A stretch of DNA of 43,136 nt from a virus: positions 1-43,136 of the IMG/VR virus record IMGVR_UViG_3300045988_021913, one strand, 5' to 3'. Shown here piece after piece: positions 3,524-29,349 of this stretch. The notes under the pieces are model-generated. The model did no database searches and had not been told where the DNA came from. It saw only the letters and a program-made list of their open reading frames with translations. A program made the position numbers and the translations under genes. Each line of letters starts with the position of its first letter. Within the stretch, counting starts at the first letter, position 1.

Positions 3524-3835
3524 TTAATCATCGAGCAGCCCGTAGTTCCGTGCGACGCACTTGATAAAATCGGTATGCCAGCGTCTCGCCGTCCGATCGG
3601 AACAGTTGACTGCCATCGCCGCCCCTTCGAGCGTGTGGGTCTTGTCCCAGAACACAAGGCGGATAAATTTTAAGCGCTCTTCTCCGTCTTGCATTAACTT
3701 TGTTTCGCTCACCGCTTTTCGCACAGCGTTGCTTTCTAACAAAGACACTCCATGCAACTCCTGCTCTCGGTCGGGGGCATAGCGGCGAATAATGGCTTTT
3801 ACATAGCCCCACCAACTATAACGAGGTTTACTCAT
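3524..3835 (-). CDS. Putative late-gene transcriptional activator (RinA/ArpU-like, sigma-70 region-4-type HTH)
   Basis: 103-aa ORF. It is the last gene before the packaging module. The C-terminal ..EGAAMAVNCSDRTARRWHTDFIKCVARNYGL resembles an HTH. Confidence 0.5.
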   Translation of the reverse strand: MSKPRYSWWGYVKAIIRRYAPDREQELHGVSLLESNAVRKAVSETKLMQDGEERLKFIRLVFWDKTHTLEGAAMAVNCSDRTARRWHTDFIKCVARNYGLLDD

Positions 3836-4280
3836 GGCGCGCTACCTTTCTCTTGAACCATGCCCACAGGTTACGCCACGGGTGGGCTTCTACGTAATTG
3901 GCGCGCTGCTCGGCGTTGTAGCGTCTGTTACGCATTACATTAAGGGCCTCTTGCTTAAAAGCGCACTCGTCGTTCGCTCGCCCAAGCGCCGCCTCAGTGT
4001 CAGCGAGCTTATTTCGCAGCGCATCCGCGTCTGCTTTCAGGTTCGCAATCTCGTTTGCCTTGTTGATGGCCTTGCCGTTCATCTGGTCAAGACGTTCGGT
4101 CAAAGCGACATTCTTTTGATGCATCGCCGCCTTTAGGTTCGCATATTCGGCAATCAGATCATTCTTCTCATCGATACAATTTTTCAGCTCGATGATCTCT
4201 GCTTCAAGCGCCGCAGTTTTCTCCTTCGCTTCCTCCACCATTTTCGCCATCTGGTCTTTGGTGTACTTCTTTACGTTCAT
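3828..4280 (-). CDS. Hypothetical coiled-coil protein
   Basis: Track ORF trimmed to ATG 4280 (MNVKKYTKDQ..) behind GAGGGGAG. Heptad-like and K/E/A-rich. Confidence 0.6.
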   Translation of the reverse strand: MNVKKYTKDQMAKMVEEAKEKTAALEAEIIELKNCIDEKNDLIAEYANLKAAMHQKNVALTERLDQMNGKAINKANEIANLKADADALRNKLADTEAALGRANDECAFKQEALNVMRNRRYNAEQRANYVEAHPWRNLWAWFKRKVARHE

Positions 4281-5298: not shown

Positions 5299-5670
5299 CT
5301 AATTTCCATCGTCAGCTCTCCTGTTCCATGCTTCTTTTGCCTTTGGAATCGACCGCCCGGGATCCAGCGGCAAGAGAAAGAGCCTGCCTTCCTTGTCGGC
5401 CTCGGCCAGTTCCCGCAGGCGGTCATAGCTGCAAAAACTTTCCAAATCAGCAAGTCGCATAAGCTTCAGCGCGATCTCGTCCGCCTTATCCTTCGGCAAA
5501 ACCTCCTCCGGCGTCAGCCCCGTGTCCTCGTAGGCTGCAAGACGCTCCACACACGTCTGTCTGTACGCGCTTTTTGCCGCACGGTCATTGCAATCATTGC
5601 CACCGTAGCAATCTGCCGGATAATTGTAATCCGCTGCGCCGCTTGCGAGATATTTTGTCAGTCTCTTCAT
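5299..5670 (-). CDS. Hypothetical protein (123 aa). Its C-terminal ..EAWNRRA motif is reminiscent of Lar-type restriction-alleviation proteins.
   Basis: ATG 5670 overlaps the upstream TGA. Contains LAAYEDTGLTPEEV and KAKEAWNRRADDGN. The functional link is weak and rests on memory only. Confidence 0.55.
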   Translation of the reverse strand: MKRLTKYLASGAADYNYPADCYGGNDCNDRAAKSAYRQTCVERLAAYEDTGLTPEEVLPKDKADEIALKLMRLADLESFCSYDRLRELAEADKEGRLFLLPLDPGRSIPKAKEAWNRRADDGN

Positions 5671-6425
5671 CACTCCACCTCCTGCATCTTACTAATCACT
5701 TTTCGGATCACATCGCCGCCATAAGCGTCTTTTGTCAACTCCAAAAACTCCGCCAGCGTCATTATGCCGTGCTCGAGATCAACACCGTGGTCGCGGGCAA
5801 ACTGTTTTCTGCCCATGTCGCATGAGCCGGTCAAACGGTGATGCCAGTCGTAAAAATACTGTGTCGGATATGCTTTCTCGCGGTCTGTTTCTCGCAGAAA
5901 CGTGTCGATGCGTTCATCTTCCGGCATATCCTTGAAAAGCTTGCCTCGCAGCGCTTCCATTGCTTCGCGCAGCGTTTCGCCGTGTGCGAAAACATTTCCC
6001 TGCTTGACGATATAGCACGGTGTGAGCGTCAAATCGGCGTTCACGATTGCCCCATGCGCGGTGTTGCCGCGCACGGAACGAATCAGCGTATTTACGCCGT
6101 CAATTCGATAGATTGGTTCTCCATTGAAACTTTTAATGCCGTAGCCGTAGCCGGAGCCGTAGCCGTCGCCGGAGCCGTAGCCGTCGCCGTAGCCGTCGCC
6201 GGAGCCGGAGCCGTAGCCGGAGCCGTCGCCGTAGCCGTAGCCGGAGCCGTAGCCGGAGCCGTAGCCGGAGCCGTCGCCGTAGCCGTCGCCGGAGCCGGAG
6301 CCGTAGCCGTCGCCGGAGCCGGAGCCGTAGCCGTCGCCGTAGCCGTAGCCGTAGCCGTCGCCGTAGCCGTAGCCGTAGCCGGAATTTGCCGTCAGGAATG
6401 CTTTGGTCTTCTCCTCAAGCGTCAT
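5670..6425 (-). CDS. Gly/Tyr-repeat protein: an approximately 81-aa (G-Y-G-[DS]) low-complexity tract followed by a conserved-looking globular C-terminal domain
   Basis: Track ORF trimmed to ATG 6425 (AAGGAGTGG RBS, ATGA overlap with the upstream gene). MTLEEKTKAFLTANS-(GYGYGYGDGYGYGYGDGYGSGSGDGYG...)-IKSFNGEPIYRIDGVNTL... Confidence 0.7.
   Translation of the reverse strand: MTLEEKTKAFLTANSGYGYGYGDGYGYGYGDGYGSGSGDGYGSGSGDGYGDGSGYGSGYGSGYGYGDGSGYGSGSGDGYGDGYGSGDGYGSGYGYGIKSFNGEPIYRIDGVNTLIRSVRGNTAHGAIVNADLTLTPCYIVKQGNVFAHGETLREAMEALRGKLFKDMPEDERIDTFLRETDREKAYPTQYFYDWHHRLTGSCDMGRKQFARDHGVDLEHGIMTLAEFLELTKDAYGGDVIRKVISKMQEVE
6138..6380 (-). repeat. Coding tandem repeat (6/12-nt period, gccgtagcc/gccggagcc) that encodes the GY tract
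   Basis: Read directly. There are about 243 nt of near-perfect short-period repeats. Confidence 0.9.
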
Positions 6426-6712
6426 CTCTTCCACTCCTTTACGCCTCGAAGCGACACCGATGCAGCATCCGTGCACGGGATGATCTGGATTGCTCCCAGC
6501 ACGGTCATCCACGGAATCGTCACGGTAAAACGGCAGTTGCCCGGTGTTTTTGTGCCGTCCTGTGCGAGCTGTTCCACAGCGCATGCGCCATCCCAGCTCC
6601 ACAGCTTACGCACATCAGTCATGGTGACTTCGGAGCCGTTTCTCTCCTTGATCTTTCCGAAAAATACGCCTGCGCAGTCGCAGCGAACGATATAGTCCTG
6701 ATTGTTGTTCAT
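6422..6712 (-). CDS. Hypothetical conserved small phage protein (96 aa)
   Basis: AGGAGG lies 10 nt before ATG 6712. Sequence ..IVRCDCAGVFFGKIKERNGSEVTMTDVRKLWSWDGACAVEQLAQDG... Confidence 0.65.
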   Translation of the reverse strand: MNNNQDYIVRCDCAGVFFGKIKERNGSEVTMTDVRKLWSWDGACAVEQLAQDGTKTPGNCRFTVTIPWMTVLGAIQIIPCTDAASVSLRGVKEWKR

Positions 6713-6736: not shown

Positions 6737-6928
6737 TTAAAATTTGAAGCTCTCTCTGAGCCTGCTCCCGTTTACCTCCGCCTCCGCCGTAAAGTAGCGG
6801 TGGCTCTCGTTGATGTAGATCACGCGCCCATGCGCAGTCGTCTCTTTCGTGGTCACGCTCATAATGCCGTTGCTGCCCTGAAATGCGGCAGGCTTCCAGC
6901 TAAATGGTTCACCGATGTACATGGTCAT
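6737..6928 (-). CDS. Hypothetical protein (63 aa)
   Basis: ATGA overlap with the methyltransferase stop. GGGGAGGA RBS. Confidence 0.55.
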   Translation of the reverse strand: MTMYIGEPFSWKPAAFQGSNGIMSVTTKETTAHGRVIYINESHRYFTAEAEVNGSRLRESFKF

Positions 6929-8499
6929 TCCTCCCCGAATCTAAGTTTTGTAACGGCAACGGGAAATTCTTCGATCTCGCTTGCCCATCGTGCCGTGCCT
7001 TTGCCGTTGTGCCGCTCAAATACCAGGGGGAACCCGCCGATGCCATCAAACAGGCTGCCCATCGTAACGGGGCGCAAATACTGCGCGCTGATGCGCTTTG
7101 CCAAAAAGTCCCAAAACGGCAGCGCGATCGAGTTGCCGCAGGCCTTATAGCGCGGGCTGTCCGCGCTGTCGCGGAGCTTGCCCTTGCTGTCGCGCCACTC
7201 GCCGATGTCCGTCCAGCCGTCCGGATAGCCTTGCAGCCGCTCGCATTCCATCGGCGTGAGGCGGCGCACGATCATTCCCGTGCGGACAGTGTTTTGCAGA
7301 TTCAAACTCTGCCCGCCGCTCTCTTTGGCTTGCAGTGTTCCGTTGATCTCGCCTCCCTCGGTGAAATTGCGGCAATCAACACTGCTGACCACTAAATCGG
7401 TGCTGTCCTTGTAGTCCCGCTGCTTGCAGCTGCTCGCAACATTGCCCTCGCGATAATCACCGAAGCCCTGCATTTGATAGCAAACCGCCGGGACCTCGCC
7501 GAAGGTGTGCAGTGCAGGACACGGCTTGTCCAGTCCGACGGTGCTGCGGTTATTCGGCGATGTGATCTGCGCGCGATCAAATATCAAAACAGACGGACGT
7601 TGATTCGGCCCGTTTGATACCGCGCTCAGCGTCGGCGCGCATTCCTCGGCGTAGCCGATGCCGTTCGCCTTTGCACCCTGCCCCGCCTTAAAGGCCGCGC
7701 AGATCACCGGCTGATTGTTCCCGCTCATGCCGGCCGCAGCGGTCAGCGTAGGTGCTCTGTCGTCTGTGCGAATCTCTGCACCGCCCTGCTGCGTCGCCAT
7801 GCAGATCACTCCGCACGATGCTTGCCCCCTGCTGCTGCCGGCCGAAATGCACATTGCCTTTTCTTTGCTTGTAATCGGGTCTTGCGTCAAGTGGACCGAG
7901 ATTGCGCAGCCAGCGCCCGCTCCAAAATTTCCGGCAGCTTCTTCCCCCGCCGCTCCGCGCGGCGCAGGATGCCCTGACGCGCTTTTGCGCTCAAAGAGTA
8001 TTTCCCCTGCGGTGTCTCCTCCAAAATCTGCGACAATCGAGATACGACGGCGACGTTGGGGGACTCCCCAGTGTTGCGCGTCATGCACTCGCCAAGCCAC
8101 GCTCCATCGTCCTCCCACGTCATCGTGGTAGCCCCCCCAGGTGTTCCAGCCTTTTTCAGGCACTTCAATATCGGGGGCTTCCGGCTCTGCGATGCGGATG
8201 ATCTCTTCAAGGACTGCCGCGAAGTCTCGCCCTTTGTTGCTTGAGAATGCTCCGGGCACGTTTTCCCAGACCATAAACCGAGGTCTGACCATGTCACCTG
8301 TCCGTCCGTTCGATCTGTCATGTTCTCTCATCTCCTTTACGATGCGAACCTGTTCCATGAACAATCCGCTCCTTGCACCGGCCAATCCGGCGCGTTTCCC
8401 TGCAATGCTCAAATCCTGGCACGGGGAGCCGCCCGTGATAACGTCCACGGCCTCGATCTCCGCGCCATTGATTTTCGTAATATCGCCGAGGTGCTTCAT
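6925..8499 (-). CDS. DNA (cytosine-5) methyltransferase with circularly permuted motif order (IV-VI-VIII-TRD-IX/X-I)
   Basis: Track ORF trimmed to ATG 8499 (MKHLGDITKING.., ATGA overlap with the upstream HTH gene, GAGGGAAGAGG RBS). GGSPCQ lies at about 8416-8433, ENV at 8257-8265, QRRRR at 8044-8058, RRLTPMECERLQGYP follows, and GNS is at 7129-7137. Motif I/II (MGSLFDGIGGF..WASEIEEF) is at 6928-7062, at the C-terminus. Confidence 0.85.
   Translation of the reverse strand: MKHLGDITKINGAEIEAVDVITGGSPCQDLSIAGKRAGLAGARSGLFMEQVRIVKEMREHDRSNGRTGDMVRPRFMVWENVPGAFSSNKGRDFAAVLEEIIRIAEPEAPDIEVPEKGWNTWGGYHDDVGGRWSVAWRVHDAQHWGVPQRRRRISIVADFGGDTAGEILFERKSASGHPAPRGAAGEEAAGNFGAGAGCAISVHLTQDPITSKEKAMCISAGSSRGQASCGVICMATQQGGAEIRTDDRAPTLTAAAGMSGNNQPVICAAFKAGQGAKANGIGYAEECAPTLSAVSNGPNQRPSVLIFDRAQITSPNNRSTVGLDKPCPALHTFGEVPAVCYQMQGFGDYREGNVASSCKQRDYKDSTDLVVSSVDCRNFTEGGEINGTLQAKESGGQSLNLQNTVRTGMIVRRLTPMECERLQGYPDGWTDIGEWRDSKGKLRDSADSPRYKACGNSIALPFWDFLAKRISAQYLRPVTMGSLFDGIGGFPLVFERHNGKGTARWASEIEEFPVAVTKLRFGEE
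7887..8321 (-). CDS. 144-codon alternative-frame ORF embedded in the methyltransferase catalytic core (possible overprinted gene, or a frame artefact)
   Basis: ATG 8321, 10 nt after AAGGAG. The product ends ..GESPNVAVVSRLSQILEETPQGKYSLSAKARQGILRRAERRGKKLPEILERALAAQSRST, which is helical and protein-like. See findings. Confidence 0.3.
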   Translation of the reverse strand: MTDRTDGQVTWSDLGLWSGKTCPEHSQATKGETSRQSLKRSSASQSRKPPILKCLKKAGTPGGATTMTWEDDGAWLGECMTRNTGESPNVAVVSRLSQILEETPQGKYSLSAKARQGILRRAERRGKKLPEILERALAAQSRST

Positions 8500-8741
8500 C
8501 CTCTTCCCTCGCATTCCCCGAACAACTCCCGGAACGTCATCCCGGTCAAATCTTCCAGCGCGAGAAACGCTCGCACGGTCACGTCCACGTCGCCCTTGAC
8601 GTAGCGGCTCACGTTGGTCGCCGAAATGCCGGTCGCCTCGGCAAGCGTGGTCTGGTTGTAGTCGGTCTTCTCCAGTGCCGCTTTTAAGCCCAAATACGGG
8701 CAGCGCTCCCACGGGGTCTTGCTCATAACAAATCGGCTCAT
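8496..8741 (-). CDS. HTH (XRE-like) DNA-binding protein
   Basis: AGGAGG lies 8 nt before ATG 8741. Sequence ..YNQTTLAEATGISATNVSRYVKGD... Confidence 0.75.
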   Translation of the reverse strand: MSRFVMSKTPWERCPYLGLKAALEKTDYNQTTLAEATGISATNVSRYVKGDVDVTVRAFLALEDLTGMTFRELFGECEGRG

Positions 8742-9820: not shown

Positions 9821-10637
9821 TGCTTCCCTCCAACACCGACTTGACGTACCGCAGGCGCTTATTCGCCTTTTCGCGTCGCAGATTGTCGCCCTTGAACACC
9901 AGTGGCGTACACATCTCGATCACGCGGTCATAAATGCGCTGATAGTCCATGTTTTTCGGCTTGCACAGCTCGTCCAGAGTCAAGTTCGTGGTGACGATCA
10001 GCGGCTTTTTTGCCTTATAGCGCTCGTCAATGACCGTGTATACCGTCTCCATTGCGTACTCGCTGCTGCGCTCTGCGCCAAGATCGTCAATTACCAACAG
10101 CGGGTAGTACCTCACCTGCTTGATGATCTCCTGCTTGTCGTATCCCGCGTTGAGGATTCGCGGGAAGCTCGTAATCATCGCCGGAATTCCGCGATCGATC
10201 AGCTCGTTAGCGATGCACGCCGCCGCGAAAGTCTTGCCGTTGCCGGTGTTCCCCCACAGCAGAAGCCCATTGTTCTCGCGCCGCATATCGTCCCACGCGT
10301 CGGCATAGCGCTTGCATTTGACGATCTCGTCACTCATCGTTGCCGTGCCGAATCGGCACGCCGTCAGGCTCTTGTCGCGGATTCCGTCAGCACGCAGCGT
10401 TTCGATGCGCAAGCGCTTCTCGCGGTCAGCGCGAGCTTTTTTCTCAGCCTCGTACTCTCGCGCCGCACAAGCACACTGACACCCGACAAGGCGGACGCCC
10501 CCGCCGATGGGGATGCGGCACTGCTTCGGCGTGTTGCAATGGCCGCAGTACAGCAGCCCGTCTTTCTCGTAGTCGACCAGATCGCGCACAGGCTCGGCCT
10601 TTTCCGCGATGCTGTCAATCAATGCGTCAACGTTCAT
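9810..10637 (-). CDS. DnaC/IstB-like AAA+ helicase loader
   Basis: Walker A LLLWGNTGNGKTFAA and Walker B LLVIDDLGAE. ATGA overlap with the upstream gene. Confidence 0.85.
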   Translation of the reverse strand: MNVDALIDSIAEKAEPVRDLVDYEKDGLLYCGHCNTPKQCRIPIGGGVRLVGCQCACAAREYEAEKKARADREKRLRIETLRADGIRDKSLTACRFGTATMSDEIVKCKRYADAWDDMRRENNGLLLWGNTGNGKTFAAACIANELIDRGIPAMITSFPRILNAGYDKQEIIKQVRYYPLLVIDDLGAERSSEYAMETVYTVIDERYKAKKPLIVTTNLTLDELCKPKNMDYQRIYDRVIEMCTPLVFKGDNLRREKANKRLRYVKSVLEGSNGH

Positions 10638-11287
10638 AGGCTTCCCTCCGTGTTGCCGTAGTCGTAGTGATACCCTCTGCCGCTCTCGGGTAGCTCATCG
10701 TCCCACCGGCCTTGATTCAGCCATGTAGCGGGGTGTGGAATAAACTGCCCGTTGTTCTGCGTCCATTGGTCGCTGCACTTCTGCCGCTCCACTGCGGTCA
10801 CAAGTGTTTCGAGTGGTACTTTGACCCGCTCGAAAGCTCTCTTAGCAGACTGTTTCCCGATTTTTCGCGGGTAAACTGACCAAAAACGCTCGAATGCGTC
10901 CCCCGTAGAGGGGGATTTAGAGGGTATATCGTCTTCTGTCTTATGTTCTTCGTCTTCTGTCTTATGTCTTATGTTATTAGTAGGCTTGCATTTGCTTACA
11001 TTTGCTTGCATTTGCTTGCATTTGCTTACATTTGCTTTTGACGCTCTGCCGCCAGCCGCTCCATTTTGAGCCAGCGTACCGGATTTTTGAGCGTCACGGT
11101 CGACGACCGCCTTGAATACCGGAAATAAAAGGGACTCTCTCCCAAGGGTATCAGGAATTTCACCAGACCTGGCATATTCTAAAATCGCAACAAACAGACG
11201 GCCTTTTTCGTCATCTTCCAGTGCTGCTGTTTGCTCGATCCAGTCGTAATATGCCTTTACATAGCACCTTGTCGATGCAGCTCCCAT
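10634..11287 (-). CDS. Replisome organiser / replication initiator-like protein
   Basis: C-terminal FERFWSVYPRKIGKQSAKRAFERV...FIPHPATWLNQGRWDDE is typical of phage replication-organiser proteins. It carries internal DNA iterons. Confidence 0.7.
   Translation of the reverse strand: MGAASTRCYVKAYYDWIEQTAALEDDEKGRLFVAILEYARSGEIPDTLGRESLLFPVFKAVVDRDAQKSGTLAQNGAAGGRASKANVSKCKQMQANVSKCKPTNNIRHKTEDEEHKTEDDIPSKSPSTGDAFERFWSVYPRKIGKQSAKRAFERVKVPLETLVTAVERQKCSDQWTQNNGQFIPHPATWLNQGRWDDELPESGRGYHYDYGNTEGSL
10930..11038. repeat. Iteron cluster inside the organiser gene. There are two copies of cgtcttctgtcttatgt (10930, 10951), followed by 5 tandem 10-nt units gcttRcattt (10984-11038).
   Basis: Read directly. 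The repeats are mirrored in the protein as HKTEDE/HKTEDD and ANVSKCK x2. Confidence 0.85.
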
Positions 11288-14288: not shown

Positions 14289-14431
14289 CCCCTGTCGATA
14301 AACGGCAGCAGCTCATACAGCACCTTGCACACCGCACACGCGCCGATGACGGCAAGGGAGGTTGCAAAGTCGCAGCTGTTGAGCGCGATCACCGCAGCGG
14401 CAATGCCGCCGAAAAACAGCGTGTCAATCAT
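14276..14431 (-). CDS. Small membrane protein (51 aa)
   Basis: Below the track cut-off. ATGA overlap with the upstream gene. MIDTLFFGGIAAAVIALNSCDFATSLAVIGACAVCKVL... Confidence 0.4.
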   Translation of the reverse strand: MIDTLFFGGIAAAVIALNSCDFATSLAVIGACAVCKVLYELLPFIDRGCRK

Positions 14432-14673
14432 TTCGTGCCTCCGATCAGCATGAGCTTTTCCGCGTCGGTGAATTGCAAAACTCGGTCAAGCTCCCAAATT
14501 TCCTCTAACGTCCAGCGGGAACGCCCCGCCATGCGGTTACAGATTTGCGTTTCTGACAAGCCGATTTCCTCGCCCAGCTCCTTGCCGGTGCGAATCAATG
14601 CTCGTCCCATCGCGCCGCGCACTGCTCGCTCAAGGTCATTTCGCCGTCGCGTTAACTGTTGTGGCTTTAGCAT
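14428..14673 (-). CDS. Small HTH DNA-binding protein
   Basis: Track ORF trimmed to ATG 14673 (AAGGAAAAGG RBS). Sequence ..ELGEEIGLSETQICNRMAGRSRWTLEEIWEL... Confidence 0.6.
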   Translation of the reverse strand: MLKPQQLTRRRNDLERAVRGAMGRALIRTGKELGEEIGLSETQICNRMAGRSRWTLEEIWELDRVLQFTDAEKLMLIGGTK

Positions 14674-14744
14674 CTTGCCTTTTCCTTTCTCTCGTGCTAC
14701 AATAAGCACGGACACAATATCTTGTGGTGAGATTTGTCCCACCC

Positions 14745-14776
14745 GCCCCGCTCGATGCTGCAGCATTGGGCGGGGC
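14745..14776. other. Compound inverted repeat (gccccgc..atgctgcagcat..gcggggc) at the promoter-distal edge of the repeat array
   Basis: Read directly. The 7-bp outer arms enclose a 12-nt perfect palindrome. Confidence 0.6.
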
Positions 14777-14779
14777 ATT

Positions 14780-15347
14780 TTAAAGGCCTTGCGCTTCGAA
14801 TCGGTGCCATTCCATAGCAGATCGGTTCTGTTCGCCGCGTCTCTATTCCGCCGCGCATCTCCGCAGTTCTGTTCCTCCGCGTTGCGTTGACTTGCTTAGC
14901 AGTTCACGTCCATTCAACTCCCATGCATCTCATCGCTCCTCAACCCCACTGCGCATCTCCGCTAATCGTCTCATTGCCCTCGCTCTCGCTACTCTGTGCA
15001 AAGCGGTTCAGTGCCGTTGCATCTCAAGGCCATACCGTAGCATCTCTAAGCGATTCCGCAGCGCATCACTGCTAAGCAGTTCCTTCGCTCTGCTCGGCGA
15101 ATCATTGCCCTTCCTGGCTTTTCCCTTGCTCTGCCCATCTGTTCGCCGCCGTTCCGTTGCTCGGCAACGATGTTCACGGCGAAGCCATTCCGGTGCATCT
15201 CTTCGCTGAACTATTCCTCTGCATCTCTCTGCGTTTCTATTCCATTGCGTTGCCTTCCAATGCTGTGCTGCGCTTCGCATTGCGAAGCGATTCCTTTGCT
15301 ACGCCATCGCAACGCTGGGCAAGGCTTGTCGATGCTACTCCATCGCG
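14780..15347 (-). repeat. ORF-free, strand-asymmetric array of about 13 degenerate direct repeats (minus-strand consensus GAGATGC-N3-7-GGAATRG). Candidate ncRNA or protein-binding array.
   Basis: GCATC[TA] occurs on the + strand at 14855, 14925, 14953, 15019, 15040, 15063, 15195 and 15221, with a degenerate copy at 15135. ATTCC-type partner elements accompany them. Longer sub-repeats and three palindromes are present. There are stops in all six frames. The + strand is about 70% pyrimidine (18 purines per 60 nt, counted in two lines). Confidence 0.75.
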
Positions 15348-15941
15348 TTACTCGATTTCCTCCCAGCGGAATCTGCCTTTTCCACTGTTGCGCCACTGGC
15401 CGATGCCGGAGAATCTGCCGTAGTCCAACCAGTCGCGCACAACGTCGATATGCTCATCACACAGACACACAACCGTAAACTCGCACGTTGCCCCGGCGGG
15501 GATTTCCTCGCTCATGGCAAGGCTGACACGCTCGCCCTGCGCCGTCTGCGCTCTCAGCGGGCGCTGGCACTCCTTGATCTCGCCGTCAAAGAGAATTGGA
15601 ATGGTGCGCGGCTCGGGGAAAATCAGTTTGTCGATTTCCTTCTTGTAAGCCTTGATTTTGCTGCTGGACGAATCCTTGACCTTGCGCAGACCGCCGCAGG
15701 TGTCCTTGAAAAAGCCCTTGATCTGGTAGTCGTACAAAAACGGCGTGCCATCGTCCAGACGAGGAAAAATGGTCATGGACTTTTCGGCTACCGCGTCAGC
15801 GCCGAGCGCTGCCACCTCGTCCTCCACGCTCGCCGCATCCGGTGCGTGGCTGCCGATAAACTCGCGGTAGATATCGGGGTTCGCGGGGCTGGTGCCGAGA
15901 ACCGGCTCAATAAACGTGAGCTTAACTTTGAGTTCCTTCAT
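15348..15941 (-). CDS. Cas7/Csm3-like RAMP-fold protein candidate (197 aa, otherwise uncharacterised)
   Basis: AGGAGG RBS. The motifs KVKLTFIEPVLGTSP, TPFLYDYQIKGFFKD, RPLRAQTAQGERVSLAMSEEIPAGATCEFTVV and DYGRFSGIGQWRNSGKGRFRW appear in the order and spacing of RAMP hallmarks. Confidence 0.45.
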   Translation of the reverse strand: MKELKVKLTFIEPVLGTSPANPDIYREFIGSHAPDAASVEDEVAALGADAVAEKSMTIFPRLDDGTPFLYDYQIKGFFKDTCGGLRKVKDSSSSKIKAYKKEIDKLIFPEPRTIPILFDGEIKECQRPLRAQTAQGERVSLAMSEEIPAGATCEFTVVCLCDEHIDVVRDWLDYGRFSGIGQWRNSGKGRFRWEEIE

Positions 15942-15964: not shown

Positions 15965-16168
15965 TTAGTTCTCTTCGCTGGATTTCAGCAGCACATCTAC
16001 GGTAACGCCGAAGTAGTCGGCGATGGCTTTCACGGTATCAATGCGCGGAGCATTGATACTGCCATTCCACTTCCCAATCGCGCCATTTGCGATGCCGCAC
16101 GCTCTCTCAAGCGCCCAAATGCTGATATTTCGCTCATCGCAAAGGCGCTTGACGTTCTCATAAATCAC
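15965..16168 (-). CDS. Cro-like XRE HTH repressor
   Basis: GTG 16168 lies 7 nt after AAAGGAGG. (M)IYENVKRLCDERNISIWALERACGIANGAIGKW... Divergent from the CI-like gene. Confidence 0.75.
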   Translation of the reverse strand: MIYENVKRLCDERNISIWALERACGIANGAIGKWNGSINAPRIDTVKAIADYFGVTVDVLLKSSEEN

Positions 16169-16190
16169 TCTCGATCCTCCTTTCACACTC

Positions 16191-16217
16191 ATTCGCATTG
16201 TCAAGGGCAATGCGAAT
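16191..16217. promoter_or_regulatory. Operator candidate: perfect 10-bp inverted repeat ATTCGCATTG-N7-CAATGCGAAT
   Basis: Read directly. It sits just upstream of the cro-like RBS. Confidence 0.6.
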
Positions 16218-16264: not shown

Positions 16265-16294
16265 TTGACAAGAAGATAGAAAACGCGCTATTAT
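16265..16294 (+). promoter_or_regulatory. Sigma-70-type promoter (TTGACA, 18 nt, TATTAT) facing the CI-like gene
   Basis: Read directly. Confidence 0.5.
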
Positions 16295-16372: not shown

Positions 16373-16401
16373 ATTATAGTAGAAAACCCGCTACTTGTCA
16401 A
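16373..16401 (-). promoter_or_regulatory. Consensus promoter on the minus strand (TTGACA, 17 nt, TATAAT) driving the cro-like/early operon
   Basis: Reverse complement of 16396-16401 is TTGACA. Reverse complement of 16373-16378 is TATAAT. Confidence 0.65.
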
Positions 16402-16435
16402 TAGCTAATTCGCTACAAAAGAAATATTTTTGCCT

Positions 16436-16792
16436 ATGAATACACGTAATAAAATCATTGTCCAAAACATAAGAAGCTTTGCGCAAATACGCGGGACCTC
16501 GATCAAGCAAATAGAGAAAGACCTTGACCTTGGGAATGGAATGATTGGTAAGTGGGAAGATTCCAAAAAAAGTCCGCCGTTTGAAACCATTGAAGTAATT
16601 GCAAATTACTTGGGGGCGTCTATTCTTGAGCTGGCGGGAATAACGCCGAGCGAGAACGAAAAAGCCCCCGCCACAGAGGGCGAGGGCTTAAGCGCAGCAA
16701 AGAAAGCGCTATTGGTAGCTATTGATGATTTGTCCGACGCTCAGTGTGAAAAGCTCCTTCCGATTGTATTGAGCGCAAAACAAGTACTATGA
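16436..16792 (+). CDS. CI-like XRE HTH repressor (no peptidase domain)
   Basis: ATG 16436. Sequence ..IRSFAQIRGTSIKQIEKDLDLGNGMIGKWE... No obvious SD, so it may be leaderless-like. Confidence 0.75.
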   Translation: MNTRNKIIVQNIRSFAQIRGTSIKQIEKDLDLGNGMIGKWEDSKKSPPFETIEVIANYLGASILELAGITPSENEKAPATEGEGLSAAKKALLVAIDDLSDAQCEKLLPIVLSAKQVL

Positions 16793-18058: not shown

Positions 18059-18475
18059 GTGAACATTCAGAAACGATGTCAGGAGCAAAAAGACTTGTTA
18101 AGACTAACGCATCAAGATATTGCCGACAAAGCAGGCTTACCGTTGCAAACAGTAAAAAATTTTTTCTCCCGCGCATCTAAGTCCCCATCAGTTTATACGG
18201 TCGCTGCGATTTGCAAAGTGCTTGGCATATCTCTTGATGAAATATTCGGAATTTCCGAACACTTGACGCCGACCGAAGAAACCTTGCAGGCGCGAAACGA
18301 TGAGCTAGAACGCCACGTTGACGCAAAGACTGATACCATCGAGATCATGCGGCGTGGAGTGCGTATCCGCAACATTGTGATTGCTATAATGTTTGTCATC
18401 ATTGCTATGCTTGCTGTGTGGTGCGTGTACATTGATTTTCACTGCATAGATTACGGATTTTGGAGGGGGATTTGA
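18059..18475 (+). CDS. Membrane-anchored XRE HTH protein
   Basis: GTG start. Contains ..LRLTHQDIADKAGLPLQTVKNFFS.., then a coiled segment and the TM helix IVIAIMFVIIAMLAVWCVYI. Its stop overlaps the integrase ATG. Confidence 0.65.
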   Translation: MNIQKRCQEQKDLLRLTHQDIADKAGLPLQTVKNFFSRASKSPSVYTVAAICKVLGISLDEIFGISEHLTPTEETLQARNDELERHVDAKTDTIEIMRRGVRIRNIVIAIMFVIIAMLAVWCVYIDFHCIDYGFWRGI

Positions 18476-19488
18476 TGAAAATACCAAAAGCAAAACTGCT
18501 GCCATCTGGGAACTGGAATGTCAGCGTCATGGTAGACGGAAAGCGGGTGTCCGTCACAGCGCTTACCAAGCGGCAAGCAGAGAACGAAGCCGCCGCATTG
18601 AAGTCCGGCGCGAAGTCTGCTGCTCGTGCGTCCGAGCGCACGGTTGGTGATGCTATCGACCGATATATCGACAGCAAGGACGCAATACTCTCCCCCTCCA
18701 CCGTCAACGGGTACAGAAAACTCCGCAAGGTGGTTTTCCCGGAGCTGATGAGCGTTAAATGCGCCGCGTTGACGCAAGACCGCGTGCAGCGTGCCGTGAA
18801 TAAGATGGCGCGGGAAAAGTCCCCTAAGTATGTCCGCAACGCTTACGGCCTGTTTACTGCGGCAATGGCGGAGGAATGCCCGGATAAAGTGTTCCGTGTA
18901 TCCTTGCCACAGAAAGAAGCCCCTAAAATCAAAATACCTACCATGGAAGAAATCAGAACCTTACACGAAGACTGCAAAGGCACAGCGTTTGAATTGCCTT
19001 TCCTTCTGGCCGTCTGGCTCGGCCTCCGTACATCGGAGATCAGAGGTCTGACATGGGATTGCCTTGACGGCGATATTCTGACGATCAAGCAAGCAATGGT
19101 AGACGGTGAGGACGGCCCGCAGCTCAAGCAGCCTAAAACCTATAGCGGAAACAGAAGACTAAAAGTGCCGCCGTATATTATGGGGCTGCTTAACGCAACA
19201 CCGCGCGCAGATGAGTATATTGTCCATGCGACCAGGAACGTCCTGTATAAGCATCTGCAACGCGCGTGCGCTCGATGTGGTATCCCTCCGTTCCGATTTC
19301 ACGACCTCCGTCATGTAAATGCGTCGGTCATGCTCAGGCTCAACGTTCCCGACAAATACGCAATGGAGCGCATGGGGCACTCTACAAACAACATGCTAAA
19401 AAACGTATATCAGCACACAATGAATGATAAAGCCGTAGCAGTGGCAGATGCCGTTGACGGCTTTTTTGAATCCGAATTTCATCTGTAA
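18475..19488 (+). CDS. int: Tyrosine recombinase / phage integrase
   Basis: ATG 18475 after GGAGGGGG. Contains ..LRTSEIRGLTW.., HDLRHVNASVML, ..MGHSTNNMLKNVYQH... Confidence 0.9.
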   Translation: MKIPKAKLLPSGNWNVSVMVDGKRVSVTALTKRQAENEAAALKSGAKSAARASERTVGDAIDRYIDSKDAILSPSTVNGYRKLRKVVFPELMSVKCAALTQDRVQRAVNKMAREKSPKYVRNAYGLFTAAMAEECPDKVFRVSLPQKEAPKIKIPTMEEIRTLHEDCKGTAFELPFLLAVWLGLRTSEIRGLTWDCLDGDILTIKQAMVDGEDGPQLKQPKTYSGNRRLKVPPYIMGLLNATPRADEYIVHATRNVLYKHLQRACARCGIPPFRFHDLRHVNASVMLRLNVPDKYAMERMGHSTNNMLKNVYQHTMNDKAVAVADAVDGFFESEFHL

Positions 19489-27693: not shown

Positions 27694-29349
27694 TTATTGA
27701 AAGTACCAGTTGATAGCGTAGTTCTCGGTGGGCGTGGTCTCAACGTTCACCAGCGTCTGCTTGACGATGTTGCCGGATGCGATGTAGTCGCTGCCGCGCG
27801 TCGCTGCCACGATGCCGCCGCTTCCGTTGCCCTTGAGGAGGGAGGTGGTGCTCGGTGCGCTGGCAATCGTCACCGCGCCCGTCTTGCCGTTGACGCTCGT
27901 CACGGGGTAAGGCGGCGGGTTTTCGAGGGAATACTGCCGCTCGTTTGCAACGTTGGAAAGACCAACGTCACTTTTGCTGACGCTCTGCAATGCACTGTCT
28001 GCCTTGCCGAGGGACGTTTGCACGTCCTGCGCAAGGTCGCTCTTAGCAACCGTAGACTTAAAGGCCAGCGCGCCCAAATCGCCAAACCACTTGGCGATTT
28101 TGCCAAACAGCACGGAGAGCTTTTCCCCCGTCGCGATGTTTGCGCGCGTGGTCGCTGCCGTAAAAGCCGCCGTGACGTTACTGCCGTTGCCGGTCTTGTC
28201 CAGCTTACTGGAAATGTCCTGATGCTGTGTCAGATAGCCGCTGTCGTTGGTGAGTTGAGAGGTCTTTGTGGGGATTTCGGCGCGAATGTCGGGGTGCGCT
28301 GTCGTGCTCTCATTGTGAGCTTTGATTTGCGCGGATACGTCCGGCGTAGGGATTTTACCAATAGCGTCATCAACGTACTTGTAGATGTCCGTACGCTTGC
28401 CCCGCGGGTCGTAGATGCTTGCGAGCATATCGCCAGCGCCTTGACCGTTCGCACCGTTATAGACCTCGAAGTCGAACGTCGTGCCGTCTGTCAGGGTGAT
28501 GGTGTACACGTCGCTCGTGCCGGGAGCGTGGTTGCCGCTCTTGAGAGCGATGCCGGAAATGCCGTTACCGGTTGCACCCTTCGGGCCGGGAGCGCCAGTG
28601 CCGCCGCGCGGCAAGCCAAAGACCAGCTTGTAAACATTGTCCACGAGGGATTTGCTCACCGTCGCAGGCTTGCCCGTCTCAAGCGTCACCGCCTCGACGA
28701 TCATGTTGACGATGGCGTCGCGCGCCGCCTGCGCGTCGGTCTTTGCGGTCTCCGCCGCAGACTTGGCAGATGCCGCGTCTTCGGCGCTCTGAGCGGCCTG
28801 TGTGGCTTTCTGCCCCGCAGCGGTCGAACTACCCGCCGCAGCGTCTTTTGCGCTCTCTGCGGCTTTCTGTGCCGATTCCGCCGCCGTCTTAGCGGTCTGT
28901 GCGCCGGTCTGCGCACTCTCCGCCACTTTCTGCGCATTGGCGGCGGCGGTCTGTGCATCCTTTGCCGCCGTCTCCGACTTTGCCGCATTGGTTGCCGCCG
29001 TCTGCGCGGCCTGCACCTTCTCGTCAACGCCGGTCGCAGATGCAGCAGCAGCAGCCGCAGAAGATGCCGCCGCTTTTGCGGAAGTGTCAGCCGCCGCAAC
29101 CTTGTCGTCGATGCCCTGCGCTGCGGTCTCTGCTCTGGCTGCGTCCTTTGCCGCCGCGTCAGCCGATGCCTTGGCGCTGTCAGCATACTCCTTAACGCCC
29201 TGCACCTCCGCCGCAACAGCGTCCTTCGCATACTGCACGACCTGCGAACCTTTCAGCTTCTTCGCCTCGCCGCCCTGCTCAAGCACAAAAAGGTCTTCGC
29301 CCGTGATCTGTAATGCTTGCGTGAGGTCGGAAATTGTTTTATCAGCCAT
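27694..29349 (-). CDS. Tail fibre protein with a long Ala/Lys/Glu/Thr-rich coiled-coil stalk
   Basis: About 190 aa of A-rich repeats (..AKASADAAAKDAARAETAAQ..), a short collagen-like GGTGAPGPKGATGNG, and a C-terminal globular part. Confidence 0.75.
   Translation of the reverse strand: MADKTISDLTQALQITGEDLFVLEQGGEAKKLKGSQVVQYAKDAVAAEVQGVKEYADSAKASADAAAKDAARAETAAQGIDDKVAAADTSAKAAASSAAAAAASATGVDEKVQAAQTAATNAAKSETAAKDAQTAAANAQKVAESAQTGAQTAKTAAESAQKAAESAKDAAAGSSTAAGQKATQAAQSAEDAASAKSAAETAKTDAQAARDAIVNMIVEAVTLETGKPATVSKSLVDNVYKLVFGLPRGGTGAPGPKGATGNGISGIALKSGNHAPGTSDVYTITLTDGTTFDFEVYNGANGQGAGDMLASIYDPRGKRTDIYKYVDDAIGKIPTPDVSAQIKAHNESTTAHPDIRAEIPTKTSQLTNDSGYLTQHQDISSKLDKTGNGSNVTAAFTAATTRANIATGEKLSVLFGKIAKWFGDLGALAFKSTVAKSDLAQDVQTSLGKADSALQSVSKSDVGLSNVANERQYSLENPPPYPVTSVNGKTGAVTIASAPSTTSLLKGNGSGGIVAATRGSDYIASGNIVKQTLVNVETTPTENYAINWYFQ

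What the first reader, a model, noticed from the sequence alone, without database searches (positions are those of the whole stretch)
14780..15347. 570-bp ORF-free, strand-asymmetric array of degenerate direct repeats just downstream of the RAMP-like gene
Between the RAMP-like stop (15348) and the next real start (14673) lie about 670 nt with stops in all frames. This is the longest non-coding stretch in an otherwise tightly packed operon. The + strand is about 70% pyrimidine (18 purines per 60 nt in both 14841-14900 and 14901-14960). The transcribed minus strand is therefore purine-rich.
About 13 same-orientation repeats match GAGATGC-N3-7-GGAATRG on the minus strand. Examples are agagatgcagaggaatag, agagatgcaccggaatgg, agtgatgcgctgcggaatcg, ggagatgcgcggcggaatag and tgagatgcatgggagttgaatgg. 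The GCATC[TA] cores on the + strand are at 14855, 14925, 14953, 15019, 15040, 15063, 15195 and 15221, spaced 21-28 or 60-72 nt apart.
Longer duplicated blocks are also present: TCTGTTCGCCGC at 14827 and 15138, GCT(T/A)AGCAGTTC at 14894 and 15071, and TCATTGCCCT at 14971 and 15102. There are three perfect palindromes at 15271-15289, 15155-15169 and 15068-15080, and a compound hairpin at 14745-14776.
This is not a CRISPR array and not a simple tandem repeat. Candidate roles are a structured or processed ncRNA bound by the adjacent RAMP-like protein (a decoy, sponge or scaffold), an array of protein-binding sites, or a decayed repeat-protein gene.
Basis: seen in the sequence. Interest (0 to 1): 0.8.

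Follow-up and report, generated by a model that had tools for sequence, protein, structure and literature searches.

The report
Phage VIPR locus: RAMP protein plus guide-RNA array
The "non-coding repeat region" is a 564-nt array of about 109 five-nucleotide units, each starting with a conserved G, next to a Cas7-like protein gene; this matches the phage VIPR RNA-guided DNA-recognition systems first described in two 2026 preprints, so it is a new member of a very recently discovered kind.

Summary
Window 14783-15346 (minus strand) is an unbroken chain of 109 units of 5 nt (90) or 6 nt (19). Each unit starts with G (97%) followed by C or A. The chain score is 181, against 16±5 in shuffles and at most 26 elsewhere in the window.

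The adjacent 197-aa protein (15348-15941) has a confident Cas7/Csm3-like fold. It aligns end to end with the experimentally characterised Vipr protein of phage SUSP1 (hhalign E 2.5e-6).

All 80 viral and about 50 of 57 genomic relatives, down to 47% protein identity, carry the same kind of array on the same strand beside the gene. The array sequence is not conserved. The phase G is: its substitution rate is 0.02, against 0.11-0.20 at the other positions.

This matches VIPR systems (bioRxiv 10.64898/2026.04.26.720920 and .720927), in which Vipr protomers polymerise one per pentanucleotide repeat on a guide RNA that targets competing phages.

Three features are specific to this clade:
- There is a single conserved G per unit.
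- Arrays reach up to about 200 units.
- One extra G occurs every 5-7 units, at a conserved junction where homology blocks between arrays begin and end.

I found no targets. Expression and binding are untested.

The parts
16373..16401 (-). PR-like early promoter that probably drives cro-like gene, vipr, the array and the early genes
   Evidence: Perfect TTGACA-17-TATAAT match. A divergent plus-strand promoter at 16265-16294 faces the cI-like gene at 16430-16792. Function is inferred, not shown.
15965..16210 (-). Cro-like XRE helix-turn-helix gene immediately upstream of vipr
   Evidence: Pfam HTH_26/HTH_3 and PHROG 8. An XRE HTH ORF lies upstream of vipr in 88 related loci. Whether it is a VIPR accessory (vap) gene or only the phage's cro is not resolved.
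15348..15941 (-). vipr homologue: 197-aa single-domain RAMP with a Cas7/Csm3-like fold
   Evidence: No match in Pfam, PHROG, NCBIfam or PADLOC. AlphaFold2 pLDDT 89.6. Top Foldseek PDB hits are all Cas7 backbone subunits: type VII Cas7 8z4j_J (E 1.2e-7, TM 0.59) and type III-A Csm3. Family profile against PDB gives type VII Cas7 at 3e-6 and Csm4 at 9e-4, both at the G-rich loop. hhalign against SUSP1 Vipr gives 88.8%, E 2.5e-6, 169 columns. Against the SUSP1-clade profile it gives 69.8%, E 4e-5, 180 columns. The family holds 1763 clusters at 50% identity.
14783..15346 (-). Pentanucleotide array (candidate vrRNA array): 109 units, G-[C/A]-N-N-N, in about 20 modules of 21-51 nt separated by a one-nucleotide register shift at GCnnnG|GAAwn junctions
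   Evidence: Autocorrelation. Segmentation score 175-181 against 16±5 in shuffles, and at most 26 elsewhere in the window. The same grammar occurs beside the gene in relatives. Substitution rates by unit position. 6-nt units spaced every 5-7 units. Module list.
14745..14776 (+). Conserved GC-rich hairpin at the 3' edge of the array, best read as a plus-strand (antisense) intrinsic terminator
   Evidence: Inverted repeat I1. Compensatory changes occur in 5 of its 12 pairs. On the plus strand 226 of 228 cells pair, against 196 of 228 on the vipr strand. On the plus strand it is followed by TTTT here and TTTTTT in relatives.
14675..14703 (+). Promoter-like site (TTGCCT-17-TGcTACAAT) that with the hairpin would give an antisense small RNA of about 70 nt (about 14710-14782)
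   Evidence: Promoter scan. Both hexamers lie in invariant or near-invariant columns of the 19-sequence alignment. Not shown to be transcribed. The same bases also carry the ribosome-binding site of the downstream gene.
14428..14673 (-). Small HTH protein gene (81 aa) downstream of the array, a doubtful accessory gene
   Evidence: PHROG 4583 'transcriptional repressor', E 1.5e-5. The gene is replaced by other sequence in close relatives that keep the vipr gene, an array and the 14675-14781 block. It is therefore not a fixed part of the system.

Best explanation
The locus is a VIPR (Viral Interference Programmable Repeat) system carried by a temperate phage of gut Clostridia.

**Proposed mechanism**
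1. The early lytic transcript carries the vipr gene followed by a long array of five-nucleotide repeats.
2. Vipr protomers bind one per repeat. Each holds the conserved phase G (and the C/A after it) in a pocket formed by the G-rich loop, and together they form a helical filament.
3. The filament exposes the variable bases of each repeat, which read a DNA target by gapped base pairing.
4. The bound target, probably a gene of a competing phage, prophage or satellite, is silenced.

**Shown here**
- The RAMP fold of the protein.
- Its remote homology to SUSP1 Vipr.
- The repeat grammar of the array.
- The conserved pairing of gene and array on the same strand.
- Purifying selection on the phase G.
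- The modular mosaic structure of the arrays.

**Inferred from the two preprints on other VIPR clades**
- RNA expression and protein binding.
- Filament formation.
- DNA targeting and the biological role.

In this clade the array appears to be a head-to-tail string of short modules. Each has 5-7 repeats and is offset by one nucleotide at a conserved junction.
For: **Protein.**
- The fold is Cas7/Csm3-like with high model confidence. The G-rich loop is detected by profile.
- The alignment with SUSP1 Vipr runs end to end.
- I identified SUSP1 Vipr as NC_028808 28474-29061. Its residues H17, R138, D177, W178 and R179 match the numbering in the structural preprint.
- W178 and R179 correspond to W183 (invariant) and R184 (at least 90% conserved) in this family.

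**Array.**
- It is a chain of 109 units of 5 or 6 nt in phase.
- Pooled over 73 unique arrays (5,900 units), position 1 is G in 97% of units. This figure is partly set by the scoring profile, but the scores are far above shuffles.
- Substitution rates by unit position are 0.019, 0.112, 0.112, 0.143 and 0.197.

**Gene-array association.**
- All 80 IMG/VR loci carry an array, as do about 50 of 57 genome loci at 47-88% identity.
- Hydrogenobaculum phage 1 also has one.
- The array is always on the gene's strand. It is sometimes upstream of the gene or on both sides.

**Literature.**
- VIPR consists of a roughly 20-kDa phage RAMP plus pentanucleotide-repeat RNAs.
- The alternative repeat types NNNGG, YNNNG and NNNNG, and 'staggered arrays', are reported.
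- One protomer binds per repeat. The filament has six subunits per turn in the binary complex and five in the ternary complex.
Against: - Homology to the characterised Vipr is remote. hmmsearch with the family profile finds no SUSP1 ORF, and the profile-profile probability is only 69.8%.
- The repeat consensus has one conserved G, not GGY.
- The 109 units are continuous, whereas published vrRNAs have 9-16 repeats (up to 30) and each ends in a conserved tail.
- The only conserved structure after the array pairs better on the opposite strand.
- No accessory gene is consistently linked, apart from a cro-like HTH.
- A gapped-rule target search in about 1 Mb of related phage DNA found nothing above controls.
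- There are no expression data.
Confidence: 0.82

Rival explanations
1. The Cas7-like protein coats the periodic RNA to form a ribonucleoprotein that is not a guide. It could be a decoy or poison subunit for host type III (or other class 1) CRISPR complexes, or a scaffold or sponge. This would make it an anti-defence device in the early operon.
For: The gene sits second in the early operon, next to small HTH genes, which resembles an anti-CRISPR/Aca layout. The closest solved folds are Csm3 and type VII Cas7. No targets were found.
Against: The variable positions evolve 6-10 times faster than the phase G, and modules are shuffled like spacers. A pure scaffold has no need for this. The homologous system has been shown to be a guide-based DNA binder. 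No CRISPR-repeat mimic is present.
Confidence: 0.08
2. The array works as DNA. It would be phased binding sites for a DNA-binding protein (origin iterons, a centromere-like site or a nucleoprotein platform), with a G every half helical turn.
For: The mean unit is 5.15-5.17 nt with long-range phase coherence: the variance of 20-unit spans is 0.84, against 2.98 when unit order is shuffled. That equals 10.3 bp per two units, close to the helical repeat of DNA.
Against: - The partner protein has an RNA-binding RAMP fold.
- The conserved G is always on the gene's sense strand.
- A better origin candidate, 10-nt and 7-nt tandem repeats, lies inside the replisome-organiser-like gene at 10931-11037.
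- The extra nucleotide is always a G within a specific junction motif that bounds exchangeable modules. That points to module boundaries rather than helical drift.
- The spacing of about six units also equals the subunits per turn of the Vipr filament.
Confidence: 0.04
3. The region is a neutrally decaying pentanucleotide microsatellite or a dead gene with no function.
For: The region is hypervariable in length (169-1043 nt) and in sequence, even between phages whose protein is 98% identical.
Against: The grammar is kept down to 47% protein identity and in an Aquificota phage. The phase G is under strong constraint. No relative shows an intact ORF there.
Confidence: 0.01

Closest known systems
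VIPR systems, type II as characterised in Escherichia phage SUSP1 and a Pseudomonas fulva prophage (bioRxiv 10.64898/2026.04.26.720920 and 10.64898/2026.04.26.720927)
   Same: - A roughly 20-kDa single-RRM RAMP encoded by a phage, outside any CRISPR locus.
- A long intergenic region beside the gene, on the same strand, made of pentanucleotide repeats with conserved G and variable positions.
- Conserved W and R in the G-rich loop, which contact the repeat in SUSP1.
- Hypervariable content between close relatives.
   Different: - The repeat is G-M-N-N-N (one conserved G) rather than GGY-NN.
- SUSP1 units are strictly 5 nt. Here every 5th-7th unit has 6 nt.
- SUSP1 has separate leader-repeats-tail cassettes of about 100 nt. 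Here 109 units run without interruption (up to about 200 units in L104).
- No sense-strand tail was identified.
- SUSP1 residues H17 and D177, which contact the first G, are T17 and Q182 here (remote alignment).
- No vap1-like gene is present.
Cas7 backbone subunits of class 1 CRISPR-Cas (type III Csm3, type VII Cas7)
   Same: The fold is shared: RRM core, thumb hairpin and C-terminal G-rich loop. The expected mode of action, polymerisation along an RNA at a fixed step, is also shared.
   Different: - The step is 5 nt, not 6.
- The RNA is recognised by a base at every step.
- There is no repeat-spacer array, Cas5, Cas6, Cas10 or Cas11, and no adaptation genes.
- Sequence identity is 8-15%.
CRISPR arrays (as an organisational analogy)
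   Same: Arrays are mosaics of short variable modules bounded by a short conserved junction. Some modules are shared between phages and others are unique.
   Different: The junction is only about 11 nt (GCnnnG|GAAwn), and modules are 21-51 nt. The whole array, junctions included, stays in pentanucleotide phase. No acquisition machinery is known.
TRAP binding sites in Bacillus trp leader RNA (11 GAG/UAG triplets with 2-3-nt spacers)
   Same: A protein oligomer reads a short conserved element repeated every 5-6 nt on single-stranded RNA. This comparison rests on established knowledge and was not tested here.
   Different: The protein fold is unrelated. TRAP is a closed 11-mer ring that binds about 53 nt. 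TRAP sites carry no variable guide positions.

Membership tests
VIPR system | Vipr protein: a small (about 20 kDa) RAMP with a single RRM core, a thumb and a glycine-rich loop | tested here: met
   The protein is 197 aa. AF2 pLDDT is 89.6, with a long beta-hairpin at residues 123-147 and a C-terminal GIGQWRNSGKGRF loop. The Foldseek top 50 hits are Cas7, Csm3 or Cas7-11. Profile hits fall on the G-loop of type VII Cas7 and Csm4.
VIPR system | Sequence homology to an experimentally characterised Vipr (SUSP1) | tested here: met
   hhalign of the family profile against SUSP1 Vipr gives 88.8%, E 2.5e-6. Against a 36-sequence SUSP1-clade profile it gives 69.8%, E 4.1e-5 over 180 collinear columns. 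The similarity is remote, because hmmsearch finds no SUSP1 ORF.
VIPR system | Encoded by a virus or provirus, in a minimal locus without a CRISPR array or other cas genes | tested here: met
   The window is a temperate phage with integrase, cI/cro-like genes, recombination and replication genes and capsid genes. Rfam shows no CRISPR repeat family and there is no repeat-spacer array. I scanned only about 20 of the window's ORFs against family libraries, not all of them.
VIPR system | Tandem pentanucleotide repeats beside vipr, on its strand, with conserved G-containing positions alternating with hypervariable positions | tested here: met
   The consensus is G-M-N-N-N, not GGY-NN. The preprint reports NNNGG, YNNNG and NNNNG variants in other types.
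VIPR system | Discrete vrRNAs of 9-16 (up to 30) repeats, each capped by a conserved structured 3' tail | tested here: not met
   The 109 units are continuous, with no internal leader or tail and no hammerhead ribozyme. The conserved hairpin after the array fits the opposite strand. The preprint's 'staggered arrays' of directly abutting vrRNAs overlapping by 1 nt (fig. S18) may describe this architecture. The figure is not available to me.
VIPR system | Linked accessory (vap) gene | tested here: inconclusive
   The only recurrent neighbour is an upstream XRE HTH, found in 88 loci, and it may simply be cro. The downstream HTH gene is not conserved.
VIPR system | The variable positions match natural DNA targets under a gapped rule (1-nt skip in type II) | tested here: inconclusive
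   I tried six choices of guide positions with skips of 0-3, across and within modules. The search space was about 1 Mb of related phage DNA plus the window. No excess over unit-order shuffles appeared, and the only hits were artefacts. The database is small and this clade's rule is unknown.
VIPR system | The vrRNA is expressed, is processed and co-purifies with Vipr, and the complex binds DNA | not testable with these tools
   This needs small-RNA sequencing, pull-down and binding assays.
Class 1 CRISPR-Cas (type III / VII) | Repeat-spacer array and further cas genes (Cas5, Cas10 or Cas14, Cas6, Cas11) | tested here: not met
   No such array or genes are in the window. Only the Cas7-like fold is shared.
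Phage replication origin (iteron array) | Iterons in or beside the initiator or replisome-organiser gene, recognised as duplex DNA | tested here: not met
   The array lies 3.5 kb from the replisome-organiser-like gene, which carries its own tandem repeats at 10931-11037. The array always accompanies the RAMP gene, not replication genes.

The most novel reading that the evidence does not exclude
This clade, abundant in prophages of gut Clostridia, may use a VIPR architecture and code that the two preprints have not worked out.

- Arrays of 100-200 repeats have a single conserved G per repeat.
- They are built from exchangeable modules of 5-7 repeats.
- Each module is offset by one nucleotide at a conserved GCnnnG|GAAwn junction. 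That is one extra nucleotide per roughly six protomers, which is one per turn of the six-subunit Vipr helix.

Two readings follow. Each module could be a turn-length mini-guide cut out at the junction. Alternatively, the whole array could be coated as one very long filament. With three or four variable bases per repeat, the pairing rule with DNA may also differ from the type II 'NN, skip one' rule.
Probability: 0.25. Interest if true: 0.7.

Novelty: new member of a known kind. Interest (0 to 1): 0.55.

Why it matters
VIPR was reported only in 2026, as an RNA-guided DNA-recognition system proposed to pre-date CRISPR. This locus shows that a large, unannotated family belongs to it: 1763 clusters at 50% identity, with no Pfam, PHROG or NCBIfam model.

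The family is carried mostly by prophages of human and animal gut Clostridia. It sits right after cro in the early lytic operon.

The arrays are much longer than the characterised guides. They also have a regular one-nucleotide register shift and a spacer-like module mosaic. If the modules are individual guides, each phage carries about 20 addresses against rival elements. Decoding them would map phage-phage conflict in the gut.

The single-G repeat also offers a natural variant for testing how Vipr reads its RNA.

Tried and rejected
- **Repeat and RNA-family tools.** Tandem Repeats Finder finds nothing in the region. Rfam gives nothing at gathering thresholds, and only a chance sR33 match at E 2.2 with relaxed thresholds.
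- **Protein libraries.** Pfam, PHROGs, NCBIfam and PADLOC give nothing for the 197-aa protein.
- **Coding hypothesis.** The 90-aa ORF has only a chance PHROG match at E 0.005, and a 5-nt period cannot be coding.
- **Global RNA structure.** The array folds only marginally better than shuffles (z -2.0). It is too purine-rich to self-pair.
- **DNA helical phasing.** I took this seriously because the mean unit is 5.16 nt and phase is coherent over 100 nt. I set it aside because the extra nucleotide sits in a specific junction motif that bounds exchangeable modules.
- **Conserved block 14674-14781 as the vrRNA 3' tail.** It folds well (z -4.2) and covaries. However, its main hairpin pairs on the opposite strand.
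- **Target search.** Gapped rules gave only artefacts.
- The alignment-based genome scan failed for lack of a conserved stretch.
- **First literature searches.** 'Cas7-like phage' and similar terms found nothing relevant. The search that included 'pentanucleotide' found the VIPR preprint.

Full report
**Context.** The window is a temperate phage or prophage.
- An integrase (18460-19488, plus) and a cI-like repressor (16430-16792, plus) face a leftward early operon.
- That operon starts at a consensus promoter (16401-16373, minus). It then runs through a cro-like HTH (16210-15965), the 197-aa gene (15941-15348), the non-coding stretch, a small HTH gene (14673-14428) and a 3D-domain protein.
- Next come a Gam-like protein, an exonuclease-like protein, NinB, SSB, a DUF6291 replisome-organiser-like protein and a DnaC-like loader.
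- Relatives come mostly from gut Oscillospiraceae and other Clostridia metagenome-assembled genomes.

**The observation.** Seven of the eight GAGATGC copies in the 43-kb window lie within 373 nt, on one strand. The stretch is 64% purine on the transcribed strand.

- The autocorrelation of 14781-15347 has sharp peaks at lags 5, 10, 15/16, 21, 26, 31, 36 ... 57, with z up to 9.5.
- A dynamic-programming segmentation splits the whole intergenic stretch into 109 consecutive units, 90 of 5 nt and 19 of 6 nt.
- Units start with G (97%) followed by C (56%) or A (39%). The score is 175, against 16±5 for shuffles.
- Scanning both strands of the window gives one outstanding segment, 14783-15346 on the minus strand, with score 181. 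The next best, score 26, is a coding Gly-Tyr repeat.
- The array fills the space exactly from the stop codon of the 197-aa gene to the hairpin at 14776.

**The protein.**
- It matches no family in Pfam, PHROGs, NCBIfam or PADLOC, yet it belongs to a very large family. More than 8000 90%-clusters hit the word-index search, and 1763 50%-clusters were found by exhaustive HMMER.
- A 48-sequence alignment gives a confident model, pLDDT 89.6.
- All the best structural matches are Cas7 backbone subunits: type VII Cas7, type III-A Csm3 and Cas7-11.
- The family profile hits the G-rich loop of type VII Cas7 (E 3e-6) and of Csm4.
- Two natural proteins, P0134 and P0201, are tandem fusions of two such domains. 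This fits subunits that sit side by side.

**Gene and array travel together.**
- All 80 IMG/VR loci (protein 77-99% identical) have the same kind of array on the gene's strand. In 78 of them it starts at the stop codon.
- Among 57 genome loci (47-88% identical), about 50 have one. It is usually downstream, in seven upstream, and in a few on both sides. The exceptions are mostly truncated contigs.
- In low-GC relatives the second base is T instead of A or C, so only the G is universal.
- Hydrogenobaculum phage 1 gp16 is a family member (E 1.8e-20) followed by a 690-nt array.
- Array sequence is not conserved even between phages with 98% identical proteins, whereas both flanks are.
- In alignable array segments, substitution rates by unit position are 0.019, 0.112, 0.112, 0.143 and 0.197.
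- The selected features are therefore the phase and the G, while the remaining bases are free to vary.

**Identification.**
- A full-text search found a 2026 preprint describing VIPR systems. These comprise a roughly 20-kDa phage RAMP (Vipr) and vrRNAs made of 9-16 YNNGG repeats plus a structured 3' tail.
- The variable NN bases pair with double-stranded DNA with a one-nucleotide skip.
- Natural targets lie in satellites and prophages, and the system can be reprogrammed to repress lambda cro or cI.
- The methods mention other repeat types (NNNGG, YNNNG, NNNNG). The text also mentions 'staggered arrays' of abutting vrRNAs and ribozyme-interspersed arrays.
- A companion structural preprint shows one protomer per repeat. 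The right-handed filament has six subunits per turn, or five when bound to DNA. The G's are held by H17, D177, R138 and W178, and the pyrimidine by R179 and neighbours.

**Link to SUSP1.**
- I located the SUSP1 locus in NC_028808: vipr at 28474-29061 on the minus strand, flanked by GGTNN arrays. Its residue numbers agree with the preprint.
- The family profile aligns to it end to end, at 88.8% and E 2.5e-6. Against a SUSP1-clade profile the values are 69.8% and E 4e-5.
- In that alignment W178 and R179 correspond to W183 (invariant) and R184 (nearly invariant).
- The contacts of the first G, H17 and D177, are T17 and Q182 here.
- This fits an RNA that keeps one G rather than two, but it is an inference from a remote alignment.

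**Features specific to this clade.**
1. *Length.* There are 109 continuous units here. Across relatives the median is 417 nt and the maximum 1043 nt. The preprints report at most 30 repeats per vrRNA.
2. *Regular 6-nt units.* They are not scattered.
   - Between 57% and 76% of the gaps between them are 5-7 units, against 20% expected, in every identity class.
   - The mean unit is 5.15-5.17 nt.
   - The sixth base is G in 86-94% of cases.
   - The junction reads GCAAnG|GAAwn.
3. *Exchange at junctions.* Homology breakpoints between arrays concentrate within about 8 nt of these junctions. Part of this could come from chance extension into the shared junction motif.
4. *Modules.* Cut at the junctions, the window's array gives about 20 modules of 21-51 nt. 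Eight are also found in other phages' arrays and twelve are unique among 124 arrays.

The spacing of one extra nucleotide per roughly six repeats equals the six-subunit turn of the Vipr filament. I cannot tell whether this is cause or coincidence.

**What did not work.**
- I looked for targets with six choices of guide positions and skips of 0-3. I used windows that crossed module boundaries and windows within modules.
- The search space was the window plus 139 loci, about 1 Mb, with the arrays masked.
- Nothing exceeded unit-order shuffles. The apparent excess for period-5 rules came from array calls that ran into the gene's 3' end or the downstream hairpin.
- The search space is small and the rule for this clade is unknown, so the result is inconclusive.

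**The block after the array (14674-14781).**
- It is conserved at 74-99% identity even where the downstream gene is replaced.
- It folds well, z -4.2, and has compensatory changes: 9 pairs and 34 cells, with 0 of 500 shuffles reaching the observed score.
- I first took it for the vrRNA tail. However, its main hairpin pairs in 226 of 228 cells on the plus strand, against 196 of 228 on the vipr strand.
- On the plus strand the hairpin is followed by a T-run. It is preceded by a conserved extended -10 promoter-like site at 14675-14703.
- The best reading is a small antisense RNA of about 70 nt, similar in layout to lambda OOP. Its relation to the VIPR locus is unknown.

**Verdict.** The finding is real and non-trivial. 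It is best explained as a VIPR locus. Membership rests on four things: the fold, remote but collinear homology to a characterised Vipr, the pentanucleotide grammar, and the conserved gene-array pairing. The discrete-vrRNA-plus-tail feature is not met as described for type II. Expression, binding and targets are untested. Because the kind was published in 2026, I rate this a new member of a known kind. An open possibility remains that the long, modular, register-shifted single-G arrays are an uncharacterised variant.

Noticed in passing
window 14675-14782, plus strand: A candidate antisense small RNA of about 70 nt sits between the array and the next gene. It has a conserved promoter-like site (TTGCCT-17-TGcTACAAT) followed by a covarying hairpin with a T-run. 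The hairpin pairs in 226 of 228 cells on this strand, against 196 of 228 on the other. The layout recalls lambda OOP RNA.
   Followed up: partly
window 14700-14725 (minus-strand sequence ACAAATCT...AGATATTGT): Invariant near-palindromic half-sites lie inside the conserved block, in all 19 aligned relatives. They look like an operator for an HTH regulator.
   Followed up: no
window 10931-11037: Tandem repeats of 7 nt (6.3 copies) and 10 nt (5.4 copies, 93% matches) lie inside the DUF6291 replisome-organiser-like gene (10634-11287). They are a likely replication origin with iterons.
   Followed up: no
window 6138-6381, within ORF 5670-6602 (minus): A 6-nt tandem repeat of 40.7 copies encodes a long Gly-Tyr/Gly-Ser/Gly-Asp run (GYGYGDGYG...) in a 310-aa protein with no Pfam match.
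   Followed up: no
P0134 (L139 52-1428) and P0201 (L138 4001-5299): These are natural fusions of two diverged Vipr-like domains in one polypeptide. The L138 array (5340-5656) uses GT and GC units and sits between two hairpins.
   Followed up: partly
L141 (Hydrogenobaculum phage 1, NC_028651) 3541-4228: A 690-nt G-periodic array follows gp16, a member of the family. The annotated hypothetical protein gp15 (L141 3776-3946) lies inside the array and is probably not a real gene.
   Followed up: partly
L092, L095, L102, L103, L108, L119, L135 (upstream); L084, L097, L099, L136 (both sides): In some genomes the array lies upstream of the vipr homologue or on both sides of it, always on the same strand.
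   Followed up: no
window 6925-8712 (minus): This is a 595-aa C-5 cytosine DNA methyltransferase. Only residues 73-171 match the Pfam model, so it carries a long unmatched C-terminal part.
   Followed up: no
window 15348-15420 (3' end of the vipr gene): The codons of the G-rich loop (GGCATCGGCCAGTGGCGCAACAGTGGAAAAGGC...) happen to run in pentanucleotide G phase. In several loci this made the array caller extend into the gene and produced false 'target' hits.
   Followed up: yes
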